Source of the DNA: Desulfosoma sp.
GTDB lineage: Bacteria > Desulfobacterota > Syntrophobacteria > Syntrophobacterales > DSM-9756
NCBI GenBank assembly: GCA_037481835.1
Contig: JBBFKW010000010.1
Coordinates: 96,001-160,000 of the forward strand
Reading direction: 5' to 3'
DNA length: 64,000 bases
The notes under the pieces were generated by a model that did no database searches, was not told where the DNA came from, and saw only the letters and a program-made list of their open reading frames with translations. Of this stretch, positions 50,710 to 55,779 are shown piece by piece; the first letter of the stretch is position 1; each line of letters starts with the position of its first letter. Both the position numbers and the translations under genes were made by a program.

Positions 50710-50753
50710 GGCCTCTTTCATATCGCTCACGTTTCTTTCATGTCCTGAAATCC

Positions 50754-50819
50754 AGCTTCGACCTGGGCTACCATCTGAAGCACATGGACACCCTCTCCCG
50801 GCGGGTCTTCGCCGAGTGA
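50754..50819 (+). pseudogene. purB: Isolated 3' end of adenylosuccinate lyase (purB-like)
   Basis: SFDLGYHLKHMDTLSRRVFAE*, resembling the PurB C-terminus FDLxYHLKHVDxIFxRVF. Confidence 0.6.
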
Positions 50820-50851
50820 GTTTATTTGGCTTTCGGTCGCGCTCCGGCGGA

Positions 50852-51315
50852 ATAGGGGTAGAAACGGTGTATTGCTTTGCCCAGTCCCTCTCCCCTCTGA
50901 ACCGTGCGTGCGGATCTCCCGCGCACGGCCCTCCCCTCGGGGGAATACCGAGCGGCCTCTTGGCCTTGGAACCCGGCTTGTCCAGGAGACCCGTCGGGTC
51001 GGCCTTGGACGGTACCTGCCCTCCTGCAGTTCCTGATGCAGTCGGGTGAGGTTGCCATCGAGGGTGCGCTCAAATTTTCGAGGGTCTCCAGTATGCCCTC
51101 CGTCCACACGTAACGTTCCACCCACGTCCAGTCTCTGGGCCGGGTTTCTCCCTTTTGTTCAGCCTTCTCAGACACCGCCGCGGGTTTCCTTTCGCTCCGC
51201 GTGGGCTTTGCCCATCCACCTTCCTGCGTCCCTTCGCTCCACGGGCATTACCCCGCTTCCTCGCTCCTACGAACGCTCTGACTCCTGCCCCGCTGGCTCT
51301 CCACACCCAGCAGGG
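50852..51315 (-). mobile_element. Group II intron remnant (D2/D3 region, internally deleted RT, D5, D6)
   Basis: D3-like GTCAGAGCGTTCGTAG...GGAGCGAAGGG; RT pieces WTWVERYVWT, FERTLDGNLTRLHQELQEGRYRP, KPGSKAKRPLGIP; D5 at 50899-50931; 3' end CTACCCCTAT. Confidence 0.88.
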
Positions 51316-52564: not shown

Positions 52565-52807
52565 CTACGCCACCTGAAAAGATTGACCAAGCGGCTGAAA
52601 CTCGGCCACTTCTTGCCTCTCCAGTTTCTGTCGAATTTGCTCAAAGCGCCTGACTGTCTCAGCAGAATACAACCGTTCACCACAGCGCAAACACACCTCA
52701 GCACGCACCGTAATCACCGCTGTATGGACACCACCTTTGAGCAGTTTTTCTACGTGCTTTTCGACCAACTCGCCACCACAGACAGGACACTTTTCAAAAG
52801 GTCTCAT
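52565..52807 (-). CDS. YgiT-type zinc finger protein (MqsA-like antitoxin), cassette 2
   Basis: CPVCGG...VCLRCGERLY; overlaps upstream DUF4258 gene. Confidence 0.85.
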   Translation of the reverse strand: MRPFEKCPVCGGELVEKHVEKLLKGGVHTAVITVRAEVCLRCGERLYSAETVRRFEQIRQKLERQEVAEFQPLGQSFQVA

Positions 52808-53112
52808 CTCTTTCTCCTGATGCGCCAGTCAATCCATCGATTGGGGTCAGGTCGGTACACAGTGACCAGCACAGCCCATTCTGTTTCGGAATTGTAAGCC
52901 CAAACACTGTGGATCGGCTCTCCAGCAAAATTGTCACCATAGATCAGGCAACTCGGATAAGGCTTGTCAGACGGATAATCTTCAATGATCTCGCCGCGTA
53001 GGACGCTGAAGAAGATTTCATCGAAGGATAGATGGTCTGCTTGTGCTTCTTCGTCGGCGTGGTCACTGATGCGAATACGGTTATGACGGATAGCCTCAAT
53101 TATGTTTTCCAT
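52804..53112 (-). CDS. DUF4258 domain protein (putative RNase toxin), cassette 2
   Basis: SDHADEE, GEIIEDYP.DKPYPSCLIYG..PIHSV...VTVYRPD. Confidence 0.85.
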   Translation of the reverse strand: MENIIEAIRHNRIRISDHADEEAQADHLSFDEIFFSVLRGEIIEDYPSDKPYPSCLIYGDNFAGEPIHSVWAYNSETEWAVLVTVYRPDPNRWIDWRIRRKR

Positions 53113-53183
53113 GTCCACGTGTAACTCTTGCTGAACAGATTTGGTCTCTATTGTATCCCGACATGGTAGAGAAGCACAGGGCT

Positions 53184-53252
53184 GGCTAACGATTGAGCTC
53201 ACCTGCGAGTGGCGCGTCAGCGCCACGAGTCAGGTGTAGCGATTTGTTAGGG
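53184..53252 (-). mobile_element. Integron attC site of cassette 1
   Basis: Minus strand CCCTAAC-AAATC-GCTACACCTG...CAGGTGAGC-TCAATC-GTTAGCC; cassette stop codon lies in R''. Confidence 0.92.
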
Positions 53253-53954
53253 CGCGTTGTCATCGGGTTTCTGTGCTGAGCTAAGCTGTTCGGGCTCTTC
53301 TTCGCGCTCTTTGCGGTAGCGCTCGCGGTCCTTACTCGTGAAGACGTCTACTTTTAGCTTTTGGAATCCCGTTGCGACCTTGTGAAGGTCACCTTGCAGT
53401 TTCTCGATGTTCTTGGCGATCTTCAGCAGAGGGGGCTCGCCGATGCGCTGCACTCCCTTCAATTCGGAGAGATCGATAACATGCTGTCGTTCTTTTGTCT
53501 GTCCGGACGCGCTTCTATAGCGGCTTCTGATGGTCACCTGGGTCTGGAGCTTCTCTTCAAAATGTTCATTCATGGAAGTCCAGAAGGAAAAGAACTCTTG
53601 TCCTGGGCCGAGAAAAGCTATCCCGGTGCTCAGCCCCTTGATGTTGCCCAAACTGTCGATAAGGTCACTGCTGCCTTTGCTGGTCGTATTTGCAGACCAC
53701 GTGAACGTTAGATCGTACGCGGGACCAGCACCGATGTTCTTTACGACTATATCAATCAGAGAAATCCATTCATCGCGCGGGCGATAAGAGACTTCAATGT
53801 GCGGCTCGGTTTCTGCTTCGCGGAGACGTTTCGTTTAGGACACGAGCCGGGCCGTGAGCCACGCATAAACGACCGTGGAAGCGGCCACGACGCCAGCAAA
53901 GAGAAGGTTGATAACCCCCGAATTCTGGTTGAGAAAATTGACGAGCTCGGTCAT
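53247..53954 (-). pseudogene. Cassette 1 gene: N-terminal TM hypothetical protein with an in-frame TAA at codon 40
   Basis: ATG 53954 just after the attI core; ...ARLVS*TKRLRE... (TAA at 53835-53837); frame continues to a stop in attC. Confidence 0.8.
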
Positions 53955-53961
53955 GTGTGCG

Positions 53962-53995
53962 CCCTAACTGTTTATTCTACACAATCTCCCTTAGC
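53962..53995 (-). mobile_element. Integron attI site
   Basis: Minus strand GTAGAATAAACA-GTTAGGG between intI and the first cassette; GTTAGGGCGC complements GCGCCCTAAC of attC1. Confidence 0.8.
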
Positions 53996-54139
53996 AAGAT
54001 GGTTGTTATAGCCCATTTAACTAGTTACCCATCAAGCTTCTCCTTGTCAAAAAGAAAAATAAGAAAACTCGTTGGCCGGAACCCTAATCTCGGATAGGCT
54101 AACTAAGGCGGGACCGGTGTTATGGAGATTGTGTAGAAT
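53974..54139. repeat. Perfect 16-bp inverted repeat flanking the attI-intI intergenic region
   Basis: ATTCTACACAATCTCC (53974-53989) and GGAGATTGTGTAGAAT (54124-54139). Confidence 0.85.
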
Positions 54140-54152
54140 CGCAAGGCTGAAT

Positions 54153-54863
54153 ATGGCCGCGATTGACACAAACTTGAAAGCCGTGCTGGAAGGATATGCT
54201 GACTTCCTGGGGGAAAAGAAGTTGGCCCCGCACAAACATCAACCCCACCTGGTACGGTGGGTGCGGCAATTCCTGCTCTATGCCAGAGAGCACGGTGGCT
54301 ACACTTTCGAGCAAACCTTGAACCTGTTCCTGAGCGCGCTGGGCAAACGTGCCGGCGTCGAGGCGTGGCAAATCCAGCAGGCTGCGGACGCCATTCGCAT
54401 TTATCGGTATCAGTATCGCGGCGAAGGCGGGCCCAAAGAGGAGAAACTGAAAGACGACAGCGTTTCAGGGAGTGACGAGAGGTTGCTCGATCGGCTTCGC
54501 GAGGTTATTCGACTGCGCCACTATGCAAAGAGTACGGAGAAATCCTACCTGCAGTGGACGCGGAGATTTCTCGCGTATCGCAAGCATGCCGGGCTTGCGG
54601 GCGAGCCCGCCGTCTCCGATGTGAAGGCGTTTCTCACCCGTCTGGCAATGGTTAAGAATGTAAGCGCATCGACACAGAATCAGGCGTTCAGAGCATTGCT
54701 TCTTTTTTTCAGGGAACTCTTGCGAAAGGACTTAAACGAAATGGGCCAGACCGTTGAAATCCAAGAACTCTTGGGCCACAAGAGCCTCGAGACGACGATG
54801 ATCTATACGCACGTCGCACGAGAACTGAAGACAAACGCACGCAGTCCGCTTGACGATCTGTAA
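54153..54863 (+). pseudogene. intI: Integron integrase, long N-terminal form, with in-frame deletion of most of the catalytic domain
   Basis: LLDRLREVIRLRHYAKSTEKSYLQW, FLTRLA...VSASTQNQAF, joined directly to IQELLGHKSLETTMIYTHV...SPLD; adjacent attI and attC array. Confidence 0.9.
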
Positions 54864-55517: not shown

Positions 55518-55605
55518 ATAGGCGTAGGAAGGGCTCGTTACCGAGTCCCTCCCCTCTCGGAACCGTACGTGCGGATCTCCCGCATACGGCTCTCCGGTCG
55601 GAGGA
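55518..55605 (-). mobile_element. Second group II intron remnant (D5 + D6 only)
   Basis: Minus strand GAGCCGTATGCGGGAGATCCGCACGTACGGTTC (55560-55592), D6 hairpin, 3' end CTACGCCTAT. Confidence 0.85.
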
Positions 55606-55779
55606 CTTTCATCTCTATGATCGCGCCTGCTCCCAGGCGCACAAGGGGCGAGTTATGCCTTGCCCCCAAGGCCCGCCCTTCAGGCACGCACGATGACAAA
55701 AGGTGAAAGACCGGCGCTTTCCAGCCCATGCGCCGTTGTGGTAAAAGGCGGGAAATTCCCACATCCGGAAGGAGCCGAC

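What the first reader, a model, noticed from the sequence alone, without database searches (positions are those of the whole stretch)
53974..54139. Perfect 16-bp inverted repeat coupling attI to the intI promoter region
Seen: GGAGATTGTGTAGAAT occurs on the minus strand 5 bp from the attI GTT core (the expected L-arm position) and on the plus strand 13 bp before the intI ATG. Both copies point outward and end in a -10-like TAGAAT, and a minus-strand TTGACA lies between them (54045-54050). I do not recognise this from class 1-3 integrons. Inference, three options: an IntI-binding site copied onto its own promoter (autorepression, possibly retained by the truncated DNA-binding IntI); a shared operator or -10 for divergent Pc/PintI; or the ends of an invertible 166-bp promoter switch.
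Basis: partly seen in the sequence, partly recalled or inferred. Interest (0 to 1): 0.75.

Follow-up and report, generated by a model that had tools for sequence, protein, structure and literature searches.

The report
Inverted integrase-site arms framing attI
The two inverted copies of a 16-base motif are real and conserved in related integrons; they most likely are matching docking sites for the integron's own recombinase at the two ends of a ~190-base control region, a layout not described for the well-studied integrons.

Summary
Confirmed: GGAGATTGTGTAGAAT lies at 53974-53989 (-) and 54124-54139 (+), 134 nt apart, 5 nt from the attI crossover and 13 nt before the intI ATG. It is not a quirk of this window. 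The same two arms, at the same positions, occur in homologous platforms of 4 related genomes and many metagenome loci. More distant relatives keep the architecture with other arm sequences.

All these integrases carry an extra ~90-aa N-terminal domain, which models as a second core-binding domain. Nine integrons with ordinary short integrases show no such repeat.

Conserved sigma-70-like promoters (Pc, PintI) lie back to back inside the spacer, so the arms sit downstream of them rather than serving as their -10 boxes.

Seven intI-less copies of the module in 3 genomes keep both arm blocks at 91-96% identity while their spacers drift to 75%. Those spacers are unrelated to the intI-linked spacers.

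Best reading (about 0.5, inferred, no binding data): both arms are IntI recognition modules bounding an extended attI. The distal arm would be an accessory site, and where intI is present also an operator.

No inverted form was seen. Here intI has lost 190 aa of its catalytic domain, so the local copy is probably a relic.

The parts
53962..53968 (-). attI R box / crossover core GTTAGGG. The junction with cassette 1 lies between 53968 and 53967.
   Evidence: Perfect 10-nt complement with 53246-53255 (I19). The attC hairpin of cassette 1 folds at 53184-53255.
53969..53973 (-). 5-nt spacer (AAACA on the minus strand) between the R box and the left arm. Its length is fixed and its sequence is variable and A-rich in relatives.
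   Evidence: AAC-N5-ATTCTAC is exact in 19 of 33 related loci.
53974..53989 (-). Left (attI-proximal) arm GGAGATTGTGTAGAAT. Its outer 7 nt, GTAGAAT, occupy the L-box position of the simple site.
   Evidence: The block is near invariant in alignment A2 and 91.3% identical among 7 intI-less modules.
54022..54050 (-). Pc-like promoter region: -35 TTGACA at 54045-54050 and a degenerate -10 TAACTA at 54022-54027.
   Evidence: Read. The homologous position holds TTGACA-17-TAnnnT in 9 of 33 relatives. The window's own copy fails the scan.
54072..54100 (+). PintI-like promoter region: TTGGCC (54072-54077), 17-nt spacer, TAGGCT (54095-54100). It is degenerate here.
   Evidence: Read. The homologous position holds TTGACn-17-TAACAT-like in 12 of 33 relatives, against 0 of 200 shuffles.
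54119..54125 (+). Core-site-like box GTTATGG, overlapping the first two bases of the right arm.
   Evidence: G166-G172 invariant or nearly so. GTTAYGG occurs within 50 nt of the start in 19 of 33 loci, against 1 of 1794 background windows. It is the same 7-mer as DR2 of attI1 in R388.
54124..54139 (+). Right (intI-proximal) arm GGAGATTGTGTAGAAT.
   Evidence: It ends 13 +/- 1 nt before the start codon in most relatives. The block is 96.3% identical among 7 intI-less modules.
54143..54146 (+). Shine-Dalgarno-like AAGG of intI.
   Evidence: An SD-like tetramer lies at -14..-4 in 21 of 33 relatives.
54153..54863 (+). intI remnant of 236 aa: extra N-terminal core-binding-like domain (1-~90), linker, SAM-like core-binding domain (111-196), then the last 35 residues. 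There is an in-frame loss of about 190 aa of the catalytic domain.
   Evidence: residues 1-201 match 1-201 of a 426-aa relative at 72% identity, and residues 202-236 match 392-426. N-domain evidence.
53184..53967 (-). Cassette 1, holding a 39-aa ORF (53838-53954) and a 134-aa ORF (53250-53651), with its attC at 53184-53255.

Best explanation
The two arms are two copies of one composite recognition module for the integron integrase. They are placed in inverted orientation at the two ends of an extended attI region of about 190 bp.

Layout of the arms:
- The attI-proximal arm supplies the L half of the simple site. Its sequence GTAGAAT lies 5 nt from the G|TT crossover, and an outer GGAGAT-containing part follows.
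- The distal arm repeats this module about 150 bp away, fused to a core-type GTTATGG box. It sits between the intI promoter and the intI ribosome-binding site.

The integrases of this family have a second, N-terminal core-binding-like domain on a flexible linker. I infer that one protomer covers both parts of an arm.

Proposed action: IntI bound at both arms would bridge them. The bridge would enclose the back-to-back promoters Pc and PintI and form the attI complex used for attI x attC recombination, giving the distal arm an accessory or 'topological filter' role. Where intI lies downstream, IntI on the distal arm would also block intI transcription or translation (negative feedback).

What is shown: the repeat, its conservation, its fixed positions, its independence from the spacer sequence and from intI in cis, and the fold of the extra domain.

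What is inferred: IntI binding to either arm, bridging, and any effect on expression.

In this window intI lacks its catalytic domain and no other intI was found with this query, so the local copy is probably no longer in use for recombination.
For: (1) Position. The left arm abuts a verified cassette junction at a fixed 5-nt distance. AAC-N5-ATTCTAC is exact in 19 of 33 non-redundant related loci.

(2) Conservation. Both arms are present with 0-2 mismatches in L006/L040, L023, L037 and L038. The arm blocks are the near-invariant parts of the 13-row alignment A2.

(3) Same architecture, other sequence.
- Within the close clade there are arm classes GGTAGCCGGGGTAKAAY (L071, L091, L108) and xCAGAT... 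(L073/L076), present in both arms of a locus.
- In relatives at about 38% identity the repeat is ATTATCTAGCGC..., including a 20-bp palindrome 18 nt before the ATG.

(4) Motif-independent gapped repeat test, counted at <=1 of 100 shuffles: 9 of 33 close long-IntI loci, 6 of 11 distant long-IntI loci, 0 of 9 short-IntI loci.

(5) The GTTATGG box equals DR2 of attI1, read in R388. DR1/DR2 are IntI1-binding repeats that favour attI1 x attC (passages of PMC3146285, and PMC8946536).

(6) Seven intI-less modules in G000, G005 and G008:
- right-arm block 96.3% identical;
- left-arm block 91.3%;
- spacer 75.4%;
- beyond the right arm 53%;
- cassette side 35%.
Their spacers are unrelated to the intI-linked spacers in 26 of 28 comparisons.

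(7) In the four relatives' genomes searched, most motif hits examined lie in such platforms. Reversed-pattern controls gave 0, 0, 0 and 1 hit.

(8) Extra domain.
- Four-helix model, pLDDT 81.8.
- Best structural matches are N-terminal core-binding domains: XerA Z 10.3, VchIntIA Z 10.1 over residues 1-85, XerD Z 10.0, lambda Int core-binding domain Z 8.0.
- Foldseek probabilities 0.98-0.99, but E 0.3-0.6.
- Sub-threshold SAM_4 hits and internal BLASTP E 2e-4.
- The full-length model shows N-domain, disordered linker 92-106, then the core-binding domain.
Against: - No binding, footprint or expression data exist. Everything about IntI contact is inference.
- Only 9 of 33 close loci have an individually significant repeat. 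Loci with intact IntI can have arms of unequal length (L064), and the intI-less modules keep arms that differ at 4 of 16 positions. Identity between the arms is therefore not required.
- The N-domain is highly conserved (A3) while the middle of the arms differs between classes. Simple protein-DNA co-evolution therefore does not explain the joint changes. Occasional homogenisation of the two arms is an alternative.
- GTTATGG points away from the R box and lies about 150 bp from the crossover. In attI1 the DR repeats are direct and lie within about 55 bp.
- GTAGAAT is not an obvious inverted copy of the R box.
- The structural Z-scores are in a range the tool warns can be shared by unrelated helical bundles, and no Foldseek hit reaches E <= 0.001.
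- The 9 short-IntI controls come from few lineages, and kin are not independent.
Confidence: 0.5

Rival explanations
1. The arms are promoter elements. The outward TAGAAT hexamers would be the -10 boxes of divergent Pc and PintI, or the arms would form a shared operator for a host transcription factor.
For: - Both arms end in TAGAAT.
- The intI-side hexamer drifts toward TATAAT/CATAAT in relatives.
- A -35 partner for the right-arm hexamer is found in 4 of 33 loci, against a shuffle mean of 0.36.
Against: - The window has no sigma-70-like pair (0 found).
- Better-conserved -35/-10 pairs lie inside the spacer: 12 and 9 of 33 loci, with 0 of 200 shuffles reaching either count.
- An SD-like tetramer lies in the last 14 nt before the start, downstream of the right-arm hexamer, in 21 of 33 loci. 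A transcript started about 7 nt after the hexamer would lack it.
- The attI-side hexamer is nearly fixed as TAGAAT at 5 nt from GTT, which fits a recombination-site constraint.
- The arm sequences differ between clades, and the motif copies examined lie mostly in integron platforms. Neither is expected for a host regulon operator.
Confidence: 0.12
2. The arms pair with each other in single-stranded DNA or in a transcript that spans both. They would form a stem closing a ~134-nt loop, an attC-like or regulatory hairpin, and the joint changes in the arms would be compensatory.
For: - A perfect 16-bp stem forms in both strands (z -1.8 and -2.5).
- The arms change together between clades.
- Integrases of this kind recognise folded attC DNA (abstract of PMC11641012, seen in the listing).
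Against: - The interior is not palindromic and the fold z-scores are modest.
- No R'' partner for the R box exists on the intI side.
- Arms of unequal length or with 3-4 stable mismatches are conserved: L064, L094 and the seven intI-less modules.
- Differences between arms are mostly transversions at the same hexamer position.
- With promoters inside the spacer, neither predicted transcript contains both arms.
- Rfam gives no match.
Confidence: 0.1
3. The arms are the crossover sites of a site-specific inversion. Flipping the 134-bp spacer would swap the two promoters between intI and the cassettes.
For: - Inverted repeats flank a promoter-bearing segment next to a tyrosine recombinase gene.
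- Each arm can be read as box, 7-8 variable bp, box, and the variable part is often the same in both arms of a locus. That is what an overlap region would require.
Against: - Contigs of 4 runs from 3 studies each show only the window's orientation and no strand-changing joint.
- Among 28 related loci the spacer scores higher in the forward orientation in 27, and none is clearly reversed.
- Close relatives oriented by intI remnants are collinear.
- Several loci, including ones with intact IntI, have arms of different length or sequence in the putative overlap.
- The window's IntI lacks its catalytic domain.
- Both tests have low power: contigs hide minority forms, and the spacers are diverged and nearly mirror-symmetric in promoter layout.
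Confidence: 0.06
4. The repeat is an evolutionary left-over with no present function: an old duplication of the attI arm, kept similar by occasional template switching between quasi-palindromic arms.
For: - Many relatives are pseudogenised. Of 34 loci checked, only 8 have an open frame of 411-427 aa.
- The window's own intI is truncated and its promoters are degenerate.
- The homogenisation seen in some lineages needs no selection.
Against: - Both arm blocks stay at 91-96% identity while the neighbouring sequence falls to 35-75%.
- The same two-arm layout survives in two module lineages with unrelated spacers and in integrases only about 38% identical.
- The distance from arm to start codon is held at 13 +/- 1 nt.
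Confidence: 0.12

Closest known systems
attI1 of class 1 integrons: simple site L-R plus the accessory IntI1-binding direct repeats DR1 and DR2
   Same: - A crossover GTT core with an adjacent L position.
- Additional integrase-type boxes on the intI side.
- The 7-mer GTTATGG is identical to DR2 as read in R388.
- Accessory repeats are reported to favour attI x attC (passages of PMC8946536; PMC3146285).
   Different: - Here the extra site is a 16-23-nt composite arm rather than a 7-mer.
- It is inverted rather than direct.
- It lies about 150 bp rather than 25-55 bp from the crossover.
- It abuts the intI ribosome-binding site.
- The promoters lie between the sites.
- Class 1-3 integrases lack the N-terminal domain: IntI3 aligns only from residue 86 of a long IntI.
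Negative autoregulation of prophage integrase genes whose promoter overlaps attL (IntS of KplE1)
   Same: A tyrosine recombinase binds sites of its own recombination region that overlap its own promoter and thereby represses itself (abstract and passages of PMC2951348).
   Different: - IntS uses arm-type sites bound by a distinct N-terminal arm-binding domain, together with an RDF.
- Here the site is a copy of the core-proximal arm and lies downstream of the predicted promoter.
- Conservation of the distal arm without intI in cis shows autoregulation cannot be its only role.
TnpI/IRS of Tn4430: core IR1-IR2 plus accessory DR1-DR2 TnpI-binding motifs
   Same: One recombinase binds related motifs both at the crossover core and at dispensable accessory positions. 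These shape the synapse and give selectivity (abstract and passages of PMC2847244).
   Different: - The accessory motifs there are tandem, direct and immediately adjacent, within a 116-bp site.
- Here there is one inverted arm about 150 bp away, and the partner site (attC) is single-stranded.
Lambda-type heterobivalent integrases with arm-type and core-type sites
   Same: An extra N-terminal DNA-binding domain on a linker. Binding sites are spread over 150-250 bp and are bridged by the recombinase.
   Different: - The extra domain here models as a second core-binding four-helix domain.
- I recall, without any call here, that the lambda arm-binding domain has a different fold.
- No IHF or Xis sites were sought.
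Invertible promoter switches such as fimS
   Same: Short inverted repeats flank a promoter segment next to a tyrosine recombinase gene.
   Different: No second orientation was seen. One arm is part of a cassette integration site. The arms need not be identical.

Membership tests
Integron attI site (simple site) | Lies between a divergently oriented intI and the first cassette, with the crossover at G|TT of a GTTRRRY-like core. | tested here: met
   intI lies on the plus strand from 54153 and the cassettes on the minus strand. GTTAGGG is at 53962-53968. The cassette junction is verified by the 10-nt complement with the cassette's own attC end.
Integron attI site (simple site) | An L binding domain that is an imperfect inverted copy of the R core, a few bp away. 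| tested here: inconclusive
   A conserved GTAGAAT lies at a fixed 5 nt from GTT, but its inverse ATTCTAC shares only the TT and the final pyrimidine with GTTAGGG.
Integron attI site (simple site) | Bound and recombined by the cognate IntI. | not testable with these tools
   No binding or recombination assay is available. The local IntI lacks about 190 aa of the catalytic domain.
Integron integrase (IntI) | A tyrosine recombinase with a SAM-like core-binding domain, a catalytic domain and the IntI-specific insertion; close to IntI1-3. | tested here: met
   For intact relatives: the L008 ORF of 411 aa is 48% identical to IntI3 over residues 86-410. Several of the 58 N-domain relatives are named 'integron integrase' by their sources. 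The window's own copy retains only the N-terminal half and the last 35 aa.
attI1-type accessory repeats (DR1/DR2) | A 7-bp core-site-like motif GTTAYGS. | tested here: met
   GTTATGG is at 54119-54125. GTTAYGG occurs in 19 of 33 loci within 50 nt of the start, against 1 of 1794 background windows. The motif is identical to DR2 in R388.
attI1-type accessory repeats (DR1/DR2) | Direct orientation relative to the R core and within about 55 bp of the crossover. | tested here: not met
   The box reads toward intI, opposite to the R core, and lies about 150 bp from the crossover.
Invertible promoter switch | Both orientations of the segment occur in a population or among close relatives. | tested here: inconclusive
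   Only one orientation appears in the contigs of 4 runs and in 27 of 28 loci, with one tie. Contigs hide minority forms.
Invertible promoter switch | An active recombinase is available. | tested here: not met
   In this genome the only IntI match is the truncated one (G000 1 match). This does not hold for relatives with intact IntI.
Sigma-70 -10 element | A TAnnnT hexamer with a -35 partner at 16-18 nt, placed so that the transcript includes the ribosome-binding site. | tested here: not met
   The scan found 0 promoter-like sites in 53800-54300. A -35 partner exists in 4 of 33 relatives only. An SD-like tetramer lies in the last 14 nt before the start, downstream of the hexamer, in 21 of 33 loci.
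MITE / IS terminal inverted repeats | Terminal repeats at sharp element ends flanked by a target-site duplication. | tested here: not met
   The flanks TGTTT and CGCAA differ. On the cassette side homology ends at the GTT crossover, 5 nt beyond the arm. On the other side it decays gradually (53% identity).
Known RNA family | A match to an Rfam covariance model. | tested here: not met
   0 matches at E <= 1 in 53700-54400 on both strands.

The most novel reading that the evidence does not exclude
These 'long' integron integrases are heterobivalent, with two tandem core-binding domains. One protomer would read both halves of an arm, and IntI molecules on the two inverted arms would bridge them. 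The result would be a looped, ~190-bp attI complex that is needed for cassette capture and, in the same act, shuts off the enclosed Pc and PintI promoters. This would be a LexA-independent, self-limiting integron platform. The platform would also work as an intI-less satellite attI served in trans.
Probability: 0.22. Interest if true: 0.8.

Novelty: new variant of a known kind. Interest (0 to 1): 0.6.

Why it matters
How integrases recognise the double-stranded attI site is much less understood than attC recognition. The same is true of how intI is controlled outside the beta/gamma-proteobacterial LexA paradigm. In the passages of PMC3108266 that I read, LexA boxes of any other type were not found upstream of intI. 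In PMC8876359 the term 'represses' had no hit and none of the passages shown describes IntI autoregulation.

This family offers a concrete, testable architecture:
- an extended attI bounded by two inverted arms;
- an integrase with a duplicated core-binding domain;
- natural 'experiments', namely intI-less modules, promoter deletions and IS insertions.

If IntI binds both arms, the family would be a system in which to study accessory-site control of attI x attC recombination and integrase feedback. It would also show that satellite attI platforms can exist without their own integrase, which current integron finders would report only as attC clusters.

Tried and rejected
- Rfam scan of 53700-54400: no match at E <= 1.
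- Sequencing runs: no RNA holder was listed, so no transcript starts or expression could be read. All four runs laid are contigs. No inverted joint was found. The one joint listed (53986 to 54180, with 197 other letters between) belongs to a 337-nt contig of a related integron from another organism, not to a rearrangement.
- Two crude scripts to enumerate attC sites in the window found nothing, not even the attC verified by folding. Ungapped arm comparison cannot handle the bulged bases, so I did not count the array.
- A within-versus-between-locus distance test on the inner 10 nt of the arms was uninformative, because most loci share the GGAGAT type.
- Orientation of diverged spacers is only weakly resolved by alignment scores.
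- A possible small ORF or other conserved feature beyond the distal arm of the intI-less modules was looked at and left open. Two copies share a 47-aa reading, but the DNA is about 85% identical, so coding cannot be told.
- LexA boxes were not scanned formally. The arms contain no local palindrome.
- Complex prediction was not used, because the question is protein-DNA binding, which it does not score.
- No supplements of any paper were opened.
- None of the listed papers describes an inverted copy of an attI arm at the intI start or an integron integrase with an added N-terminal core-binding domain. I read only listings, abstracts and the passages cited.
Full report
**The observation.**
The 16-mer GGAGATTGTGTAGAAT occurs exactly twice in the window, at 53974-53989 (minus strand) and 54124-54139 (plus strand). 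Allowing up to 2 mismatches adds no further hit, and none of 100 dinucleotide-preserving shuffles gave two matches. The repeat finder lists the pair as a 16-nt, 100% complementary inverted repeat with 134 nt between the arms.

- The plus-strand ORF from the ATG at 54153 (13 nt after the right arm) is an integrase remnant. It has Phage_int_SAM_4 at residues 111-196 (E 2.8e-24) and only profile positions 133-170 of the catalytic domain.
- Against an intact 426-aa relative, residues 1-201 align to 1-201 (72% identity) and residues 202-236 align to 392-426. This is an in-frame loss of about 190 aa.
- The minus-strand GTTAGGG at 53962-53968 lies 5 nt from the left arm and is a real cassette junction. 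The 10 nt ending there are the perfect complement of 53246-53255 (I19). That stretch closes an attC-like hairpin at 53184-53255.
- Cassettes run leftward on the minus strand: a 39-aa ORF, a 134-aa ORF, then a DUF4258/MqsA-like pair.

**Conservation in related genomes.**
In the window's own genome a third copy (15/16) sits on another contig, in a second attI-like site with one cassette and no intI. Its distal arm reads GGAGATTGGAAATAAT.

Searching related genomes with the integrase, and then scanning the fetched loci for the motif, found both arms at the homologous places in four further platforms:
- L006, which is the same stretch as L040 (whose record title is Desulfacinum infernum DSM 9756), with 15/16 and 16/16 matches;
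- L023, with 15/16 and 16/16;
- L037, with 15/16 and 14/16;
- L038, with 15/16 and 16/16.

In L035 the attI side has been replaced by an IS end, and the intI-side arm is 14/16. In the more distant L007 and L041 the attI-side arm carries a 2-nt insertion and the intI-side arm is degenerate.

**Conservation in metagenome loci.**
A metagenome scan with the integrase N-terminal 200 aa gave 57 further loci. Read side by side, they share one layout.
- On the attI side, in the cassette direction: an A-rich box ending in GG, then AGAT plus 3-7 variable bases, then GTAGAAT, then 5 nt (AAnnA), then GTT.
- On the intI side: GTTATGG, then AGAT plus variable bases, then a (T/C)ATAAy hexamer, then about 13 nt containing a Shine-Dalgarno-like tetramer, then the start codon.

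Counts among 33 non-redundant close loci:
- AAC-N5-ATTCTAC is exact in 19.
- GTTAYGG occurs within 50 nt of the start in 19, against 1 of 1794 background 50-nt windows of the same loci.
- GGAGAT occurs there in 19, against 20 of 1794.

**Strength and limits of the repeat.**
A motif-independent test used a gapped local alignment of the last 50 nt before the start against the upstream 215 nt, with 100 shuffles, counting loci at <=1 of 100.
- 9 of 33 close long-IntI loci passed.
- 6 of 11 distant long-IntI loci passed; five of these are kin.
- 0 of 9 loci with ordinary short integrases passed (best values 2 and 4 of 100).

The ungapped version gave 8 of 33. An any-position version gave 6 of 12 distant long loci and 0 of 9 short loci.

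The perfect 16/16 of the window is therefore the strong end of a spectrum. Both of its arms simply sit at the family consensus (A2). Loci with intact integrase can have arms of unequal length (L064).

**Joint change of the arms.**
Within the close clade some loci carry other arm sequences in both places:
- GGTAATCGGSGTA... in L071;
- GGT(C/A)GCCGGGGTA(G/T)AA in L091;
- GGTAGT(T/C)G(T/G)CGTA(G/T)AA in L108;
- xCAGAT... in L073/L076.

Integrases only about 38% identical (L042, L044, L045, L057, L059, L043, L051) have a different repeat, ATTATCTAGCGC.... One copy lies 5 nt from the AAC of attI. There is also a perfect 20-bp palindrome, ATTATCTAGCGCTAGATAAT, 18 nt before the ATG, plus further half-sites between.

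The differences between the two arms of one locus are not compensatory. They are often transversions at the same hexamer position: TAGAAT on the attI side against TATAAT or CATAAT on the intI side.

**Promoters.**
The 13-row alignment A2 shows two conserved blocks inside the spacer, besides the arm blocks. A positional scan of the 33 loci (first look) gave these counts:
- A sigma-70-like pair on the plus strand, with its -10 ending 48-56 nt before the start, in 12 loci (shuffle mean 0.83; 0 of 200 shuffles reach 12).
- A sigma-70-like pair on the minus strand, with its -10 ending 126-135 nt from the start, in 9 loci (shuffle mean 1.08; 0 of 200).
- A pair that would use the right-arm hexamer as its -10 in 4 loci (shuffle mean 0.36; 0 of 200). 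Three of these four are short-spacer variants with truncated intI.
- An SD-like tetramer at -14..-4 in 21 of 33 loci, that is, within the last 14 nt before the start and downstream of the hexamer.

The window's own copies of both internal promoters are degenerate (TTGGCC/TAGGCT and TTGACA/TAACTA, read), and the tool's scan finds none.

The better-supported picture is two back-to-back promoters between the arms, with each arm lying about 15-45 nt into the respective transcribed region. This is prediction only, because no RNA data were available.

**Modules without intI.**
Whole-genome pattern searches gave 10, 4, 3 and 8 hits in four relatives' genomes, against 0, 0, 0 and 1 for the reversed control pattern. 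Twelve of these places were fetched.
- Six belong to a family of modules with no integrase match on their contigs: G005 C12, C36, C73, C7 and C55, and G008 C31. With the second locus of the window's own genome this makes seven.
- Two are further intI-linked platforms in G006.
- One is the attI half of a platform split by an IS.
- Three, all with 2 mismatches, showed no platform features.

The seven modules align over about 330 nt (A5). Each ends at a different cassette. Their distal arm is a stable variant, GTTATGGAGATTGGAGATAATC. Mean pairwise identity among the seven:
- distal-arm block, 96.3%;
- proximal arm plus core, 91.3%;
- spacer, 75.4%;
- beyond the distal arm, 53%;
- cassette side, 35%.

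Their spacers (141-143 nt) show no similarity to the intI-linked spacers (129-132 nt) in 26 of 28 comparisons in either orientation. Solo-versus-solo and window-versus-L040 spacers, by contrast, align strongly.

Two lineages of platform thus share only the two arms and their spacing, and the distal arm is constrained even where there is no intI to regulate.

**The integrase.**
All loci with the arms encode, or once encoded, an integrase with about 105 extra N-terminal residues. Intact forms are 411-427 aa: L064, L071, L072, L075, L042, L044, L059 and L008, which is 8 of 34 loci checked. Most of the others are broken.
- The core of a long IntI (L008) is 48% identical to IntI3 from residue 86 onward, so class 3 lacks the extension.
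- 58 database proteins share the N-domain, several of them named integron integrase by their sources.
- The domain has weak sequence similarity to the SAM-like core-binding domain: BLASTP E 2e-4 within the window protein, and sub-threshold Pfam SAM_4 hits at E 4.8e-4 and 0.012 in two relatives.
- It models as four helices with pLDDT 81.8.
- Foldseek gave no hit at E <= 0.001. Its high-probability rows are recombinase N-terminal domains: XerA at 0.99 and VchIntIA at 0.98.
- VIA-align ranks XerA (Z 10.3, rmsd 2.6, 82 aligned), VchIntIA residues 1-85 (Z 10.1), XerD (Z 10.0), a mycobacteriophage integrase (9.0), the lambda Int core-binding domain (8.0) and Cre (7.5) at the top. The tool warns that Z under about 13 can be shared by unrelated helical bundles.
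- The full-length model shows the N-domain, a disordered linker at 92-106, a second four-helix core-binding domain at 108-189, and the catalytic domain.

**Comparison with known systems.**
In R388, attI1 reads GTTATGG (DR2), GTTACGC (DR1) and the simple site ending in GTTAGGC, all on the cassette strand and within about 55 nt. DR1 and DR2 are IntI1-binding repeats; most environmental attI sites lack them (passages of PMC3146285). They favour attI1 x attC and have been proposed to act as topological filters, and attIA of Vibrio has none (passages of PMC8946536).

The present family has the same 7-mer, but inverted, about 150 bp away, and fused to a copy of the L-side arm.

Two further analogues:
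- Self-repression of an integrase through recombination-site boxes overlapping its promoter is documented for IntS of KplE1 and predicted for many prophages (abstract and passages of PMC2951348).
- Accessory recombinase-binding motifs next to a core are documented for TnpI of Tn4430 (PMC2847244).

In the passages of PMC3108266 that I read, LexA sites upstream of intI were found only as the beta/gamma-proteobacterial type. In the 2022 regulation review PMC8876359, my term search for 'represses' had no hit, and none of the passages shown describes integrase autoregulation.

**Weighing the readings.**
The evidence favours two protein-recognition modules over a paired stem. Arms that differ stably are conserved, arms of unequal length exist, the interior is not palindromic, and fold z-scores are modest.

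The evidence also argues against a host-factor operator or bare -10 boxes. The arm sequences are clade-specific, the motif is largely confined to integron platforms, promoters lie inside the spacer, and the SD-like tetramer lies downstream of the hexamer.

The locus-specific protein that must recognise the attI-proximal arm is IntI. A near-copy of that arm is therefore expected to bind IntI too. That step is inference.

The intI-less modules shift the likely primary role of the distal arm from autorepression toward an accessory or architectural function in attI, with feedback on intI as a consequence where the gene is present.

One point remains unexplained. The N-domain is strongly conserved (A3) while the middle of the arms differs between classes yet matches within loci. 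Occasional homogenisation between the arms, or an overlap-region-like requirement, cannot be excluded.

Inversion found no support, but the tests are weak.

**The window's own copy.**
The integrase has lost its catalytic core, no other match to this integrase was found in the genome with this query, and both internal promoters are off consensus. The perfect repeat here is probably a well-preserved relic of the family architecture. Whether the truncated two-domain protein still binds the arms is open.

Noticed in passing
window 54153-54863: intI carries an in-frame internal deletion of about 190 aa. It keeps both core-binding-type domains and the last 35 residues, including the catalytic-tyrosine motif region. 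The frame stays open for 236 aa.
   Followed up: partly
L003 1476-1700 (G000 contig C11), and L122-L125, L127, L129: A family of intI-less attI modules, seven copies in three genomes. Each has both arms and its own conserved ~142-nt spacer, and each is followed by a different cassette. Integron finders would probably report them only as attC clusters.
   Followed up: partly
L134 274-417; L135 2239-2532 (minus): Beyond the distal arm of the intI-less modules lie about 150 nt of semi-conserved sequence with a possible small ORF (MESTVCATMEP...). Two copies lack 42 nt there, a multiple of three. Whether it codes is undecided.
   Followed up: partly
L042 2380-2535, with similar stretches in L043, L044, L051 and L057: In integrases about 38% identical, the intI-proximal region holds a perfect 20-bp palindrome, ATTATCTAGCGCTAGATAAT. 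It also holds a 14-bp palindrome, GATAAATATTTATC, and further half-sites of the attI arm. This looks like a multi-operator region.
   Followed up: partly
L035 1-330 and L126 (G005 contigs C54 and C27): One platform of G005 is split by an IS21-like element inserted in the spacer between the arms. An IstB-like reading and repeated GGGTCA motifs lie at its ends.
   Followed up: no
L064-L120 and L040-L041: Most integrases of this family are broken. Of 34 loci checked, 8 have an open frame of 411-427 aa. Short-spacer variants (arms about 65 nt apart, L078-L085, L089, L099) have lost the promoter region and have truncated intI.
   Followed up: partly
L122, L125, L129, L040 just after the GTT crossover: Four modules are followed at once by the same 13-bp-stem hairpin (GTTCGTGGGACGC ... 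GCGTCCCACGAAC), as if a minimal attC or terminator sat directly at attI without a gene.
   Followed up: no
window 52568-53226: The second and third cassette genes are a DUF4258 protein (E 1.1e-21) and a small zinc-ribbon MqsA-like protein (E 4.3e-6, below the curated cut-off). This is a likely toxin-antitoxin cassette pair.
   Followed up: no
window 53964-53986 and 54180-54293 (runs X1, X2): A 337-nt contig at higher depth than the window's own contig matches the attI arm and the start of intI but has 197 other letters between them. It is a related integron of another organism in the same samples.
   Followed up: no
window 50727-51125 and 55538-55762 (minus-strand ORF translations): Two ORF translations share an ...REIRT(H/Y)GSE(R/G)G... 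motif. From memory this recalls translated group II intron or retroelement remnants. It was not checked with any tool.
   Followed up: no
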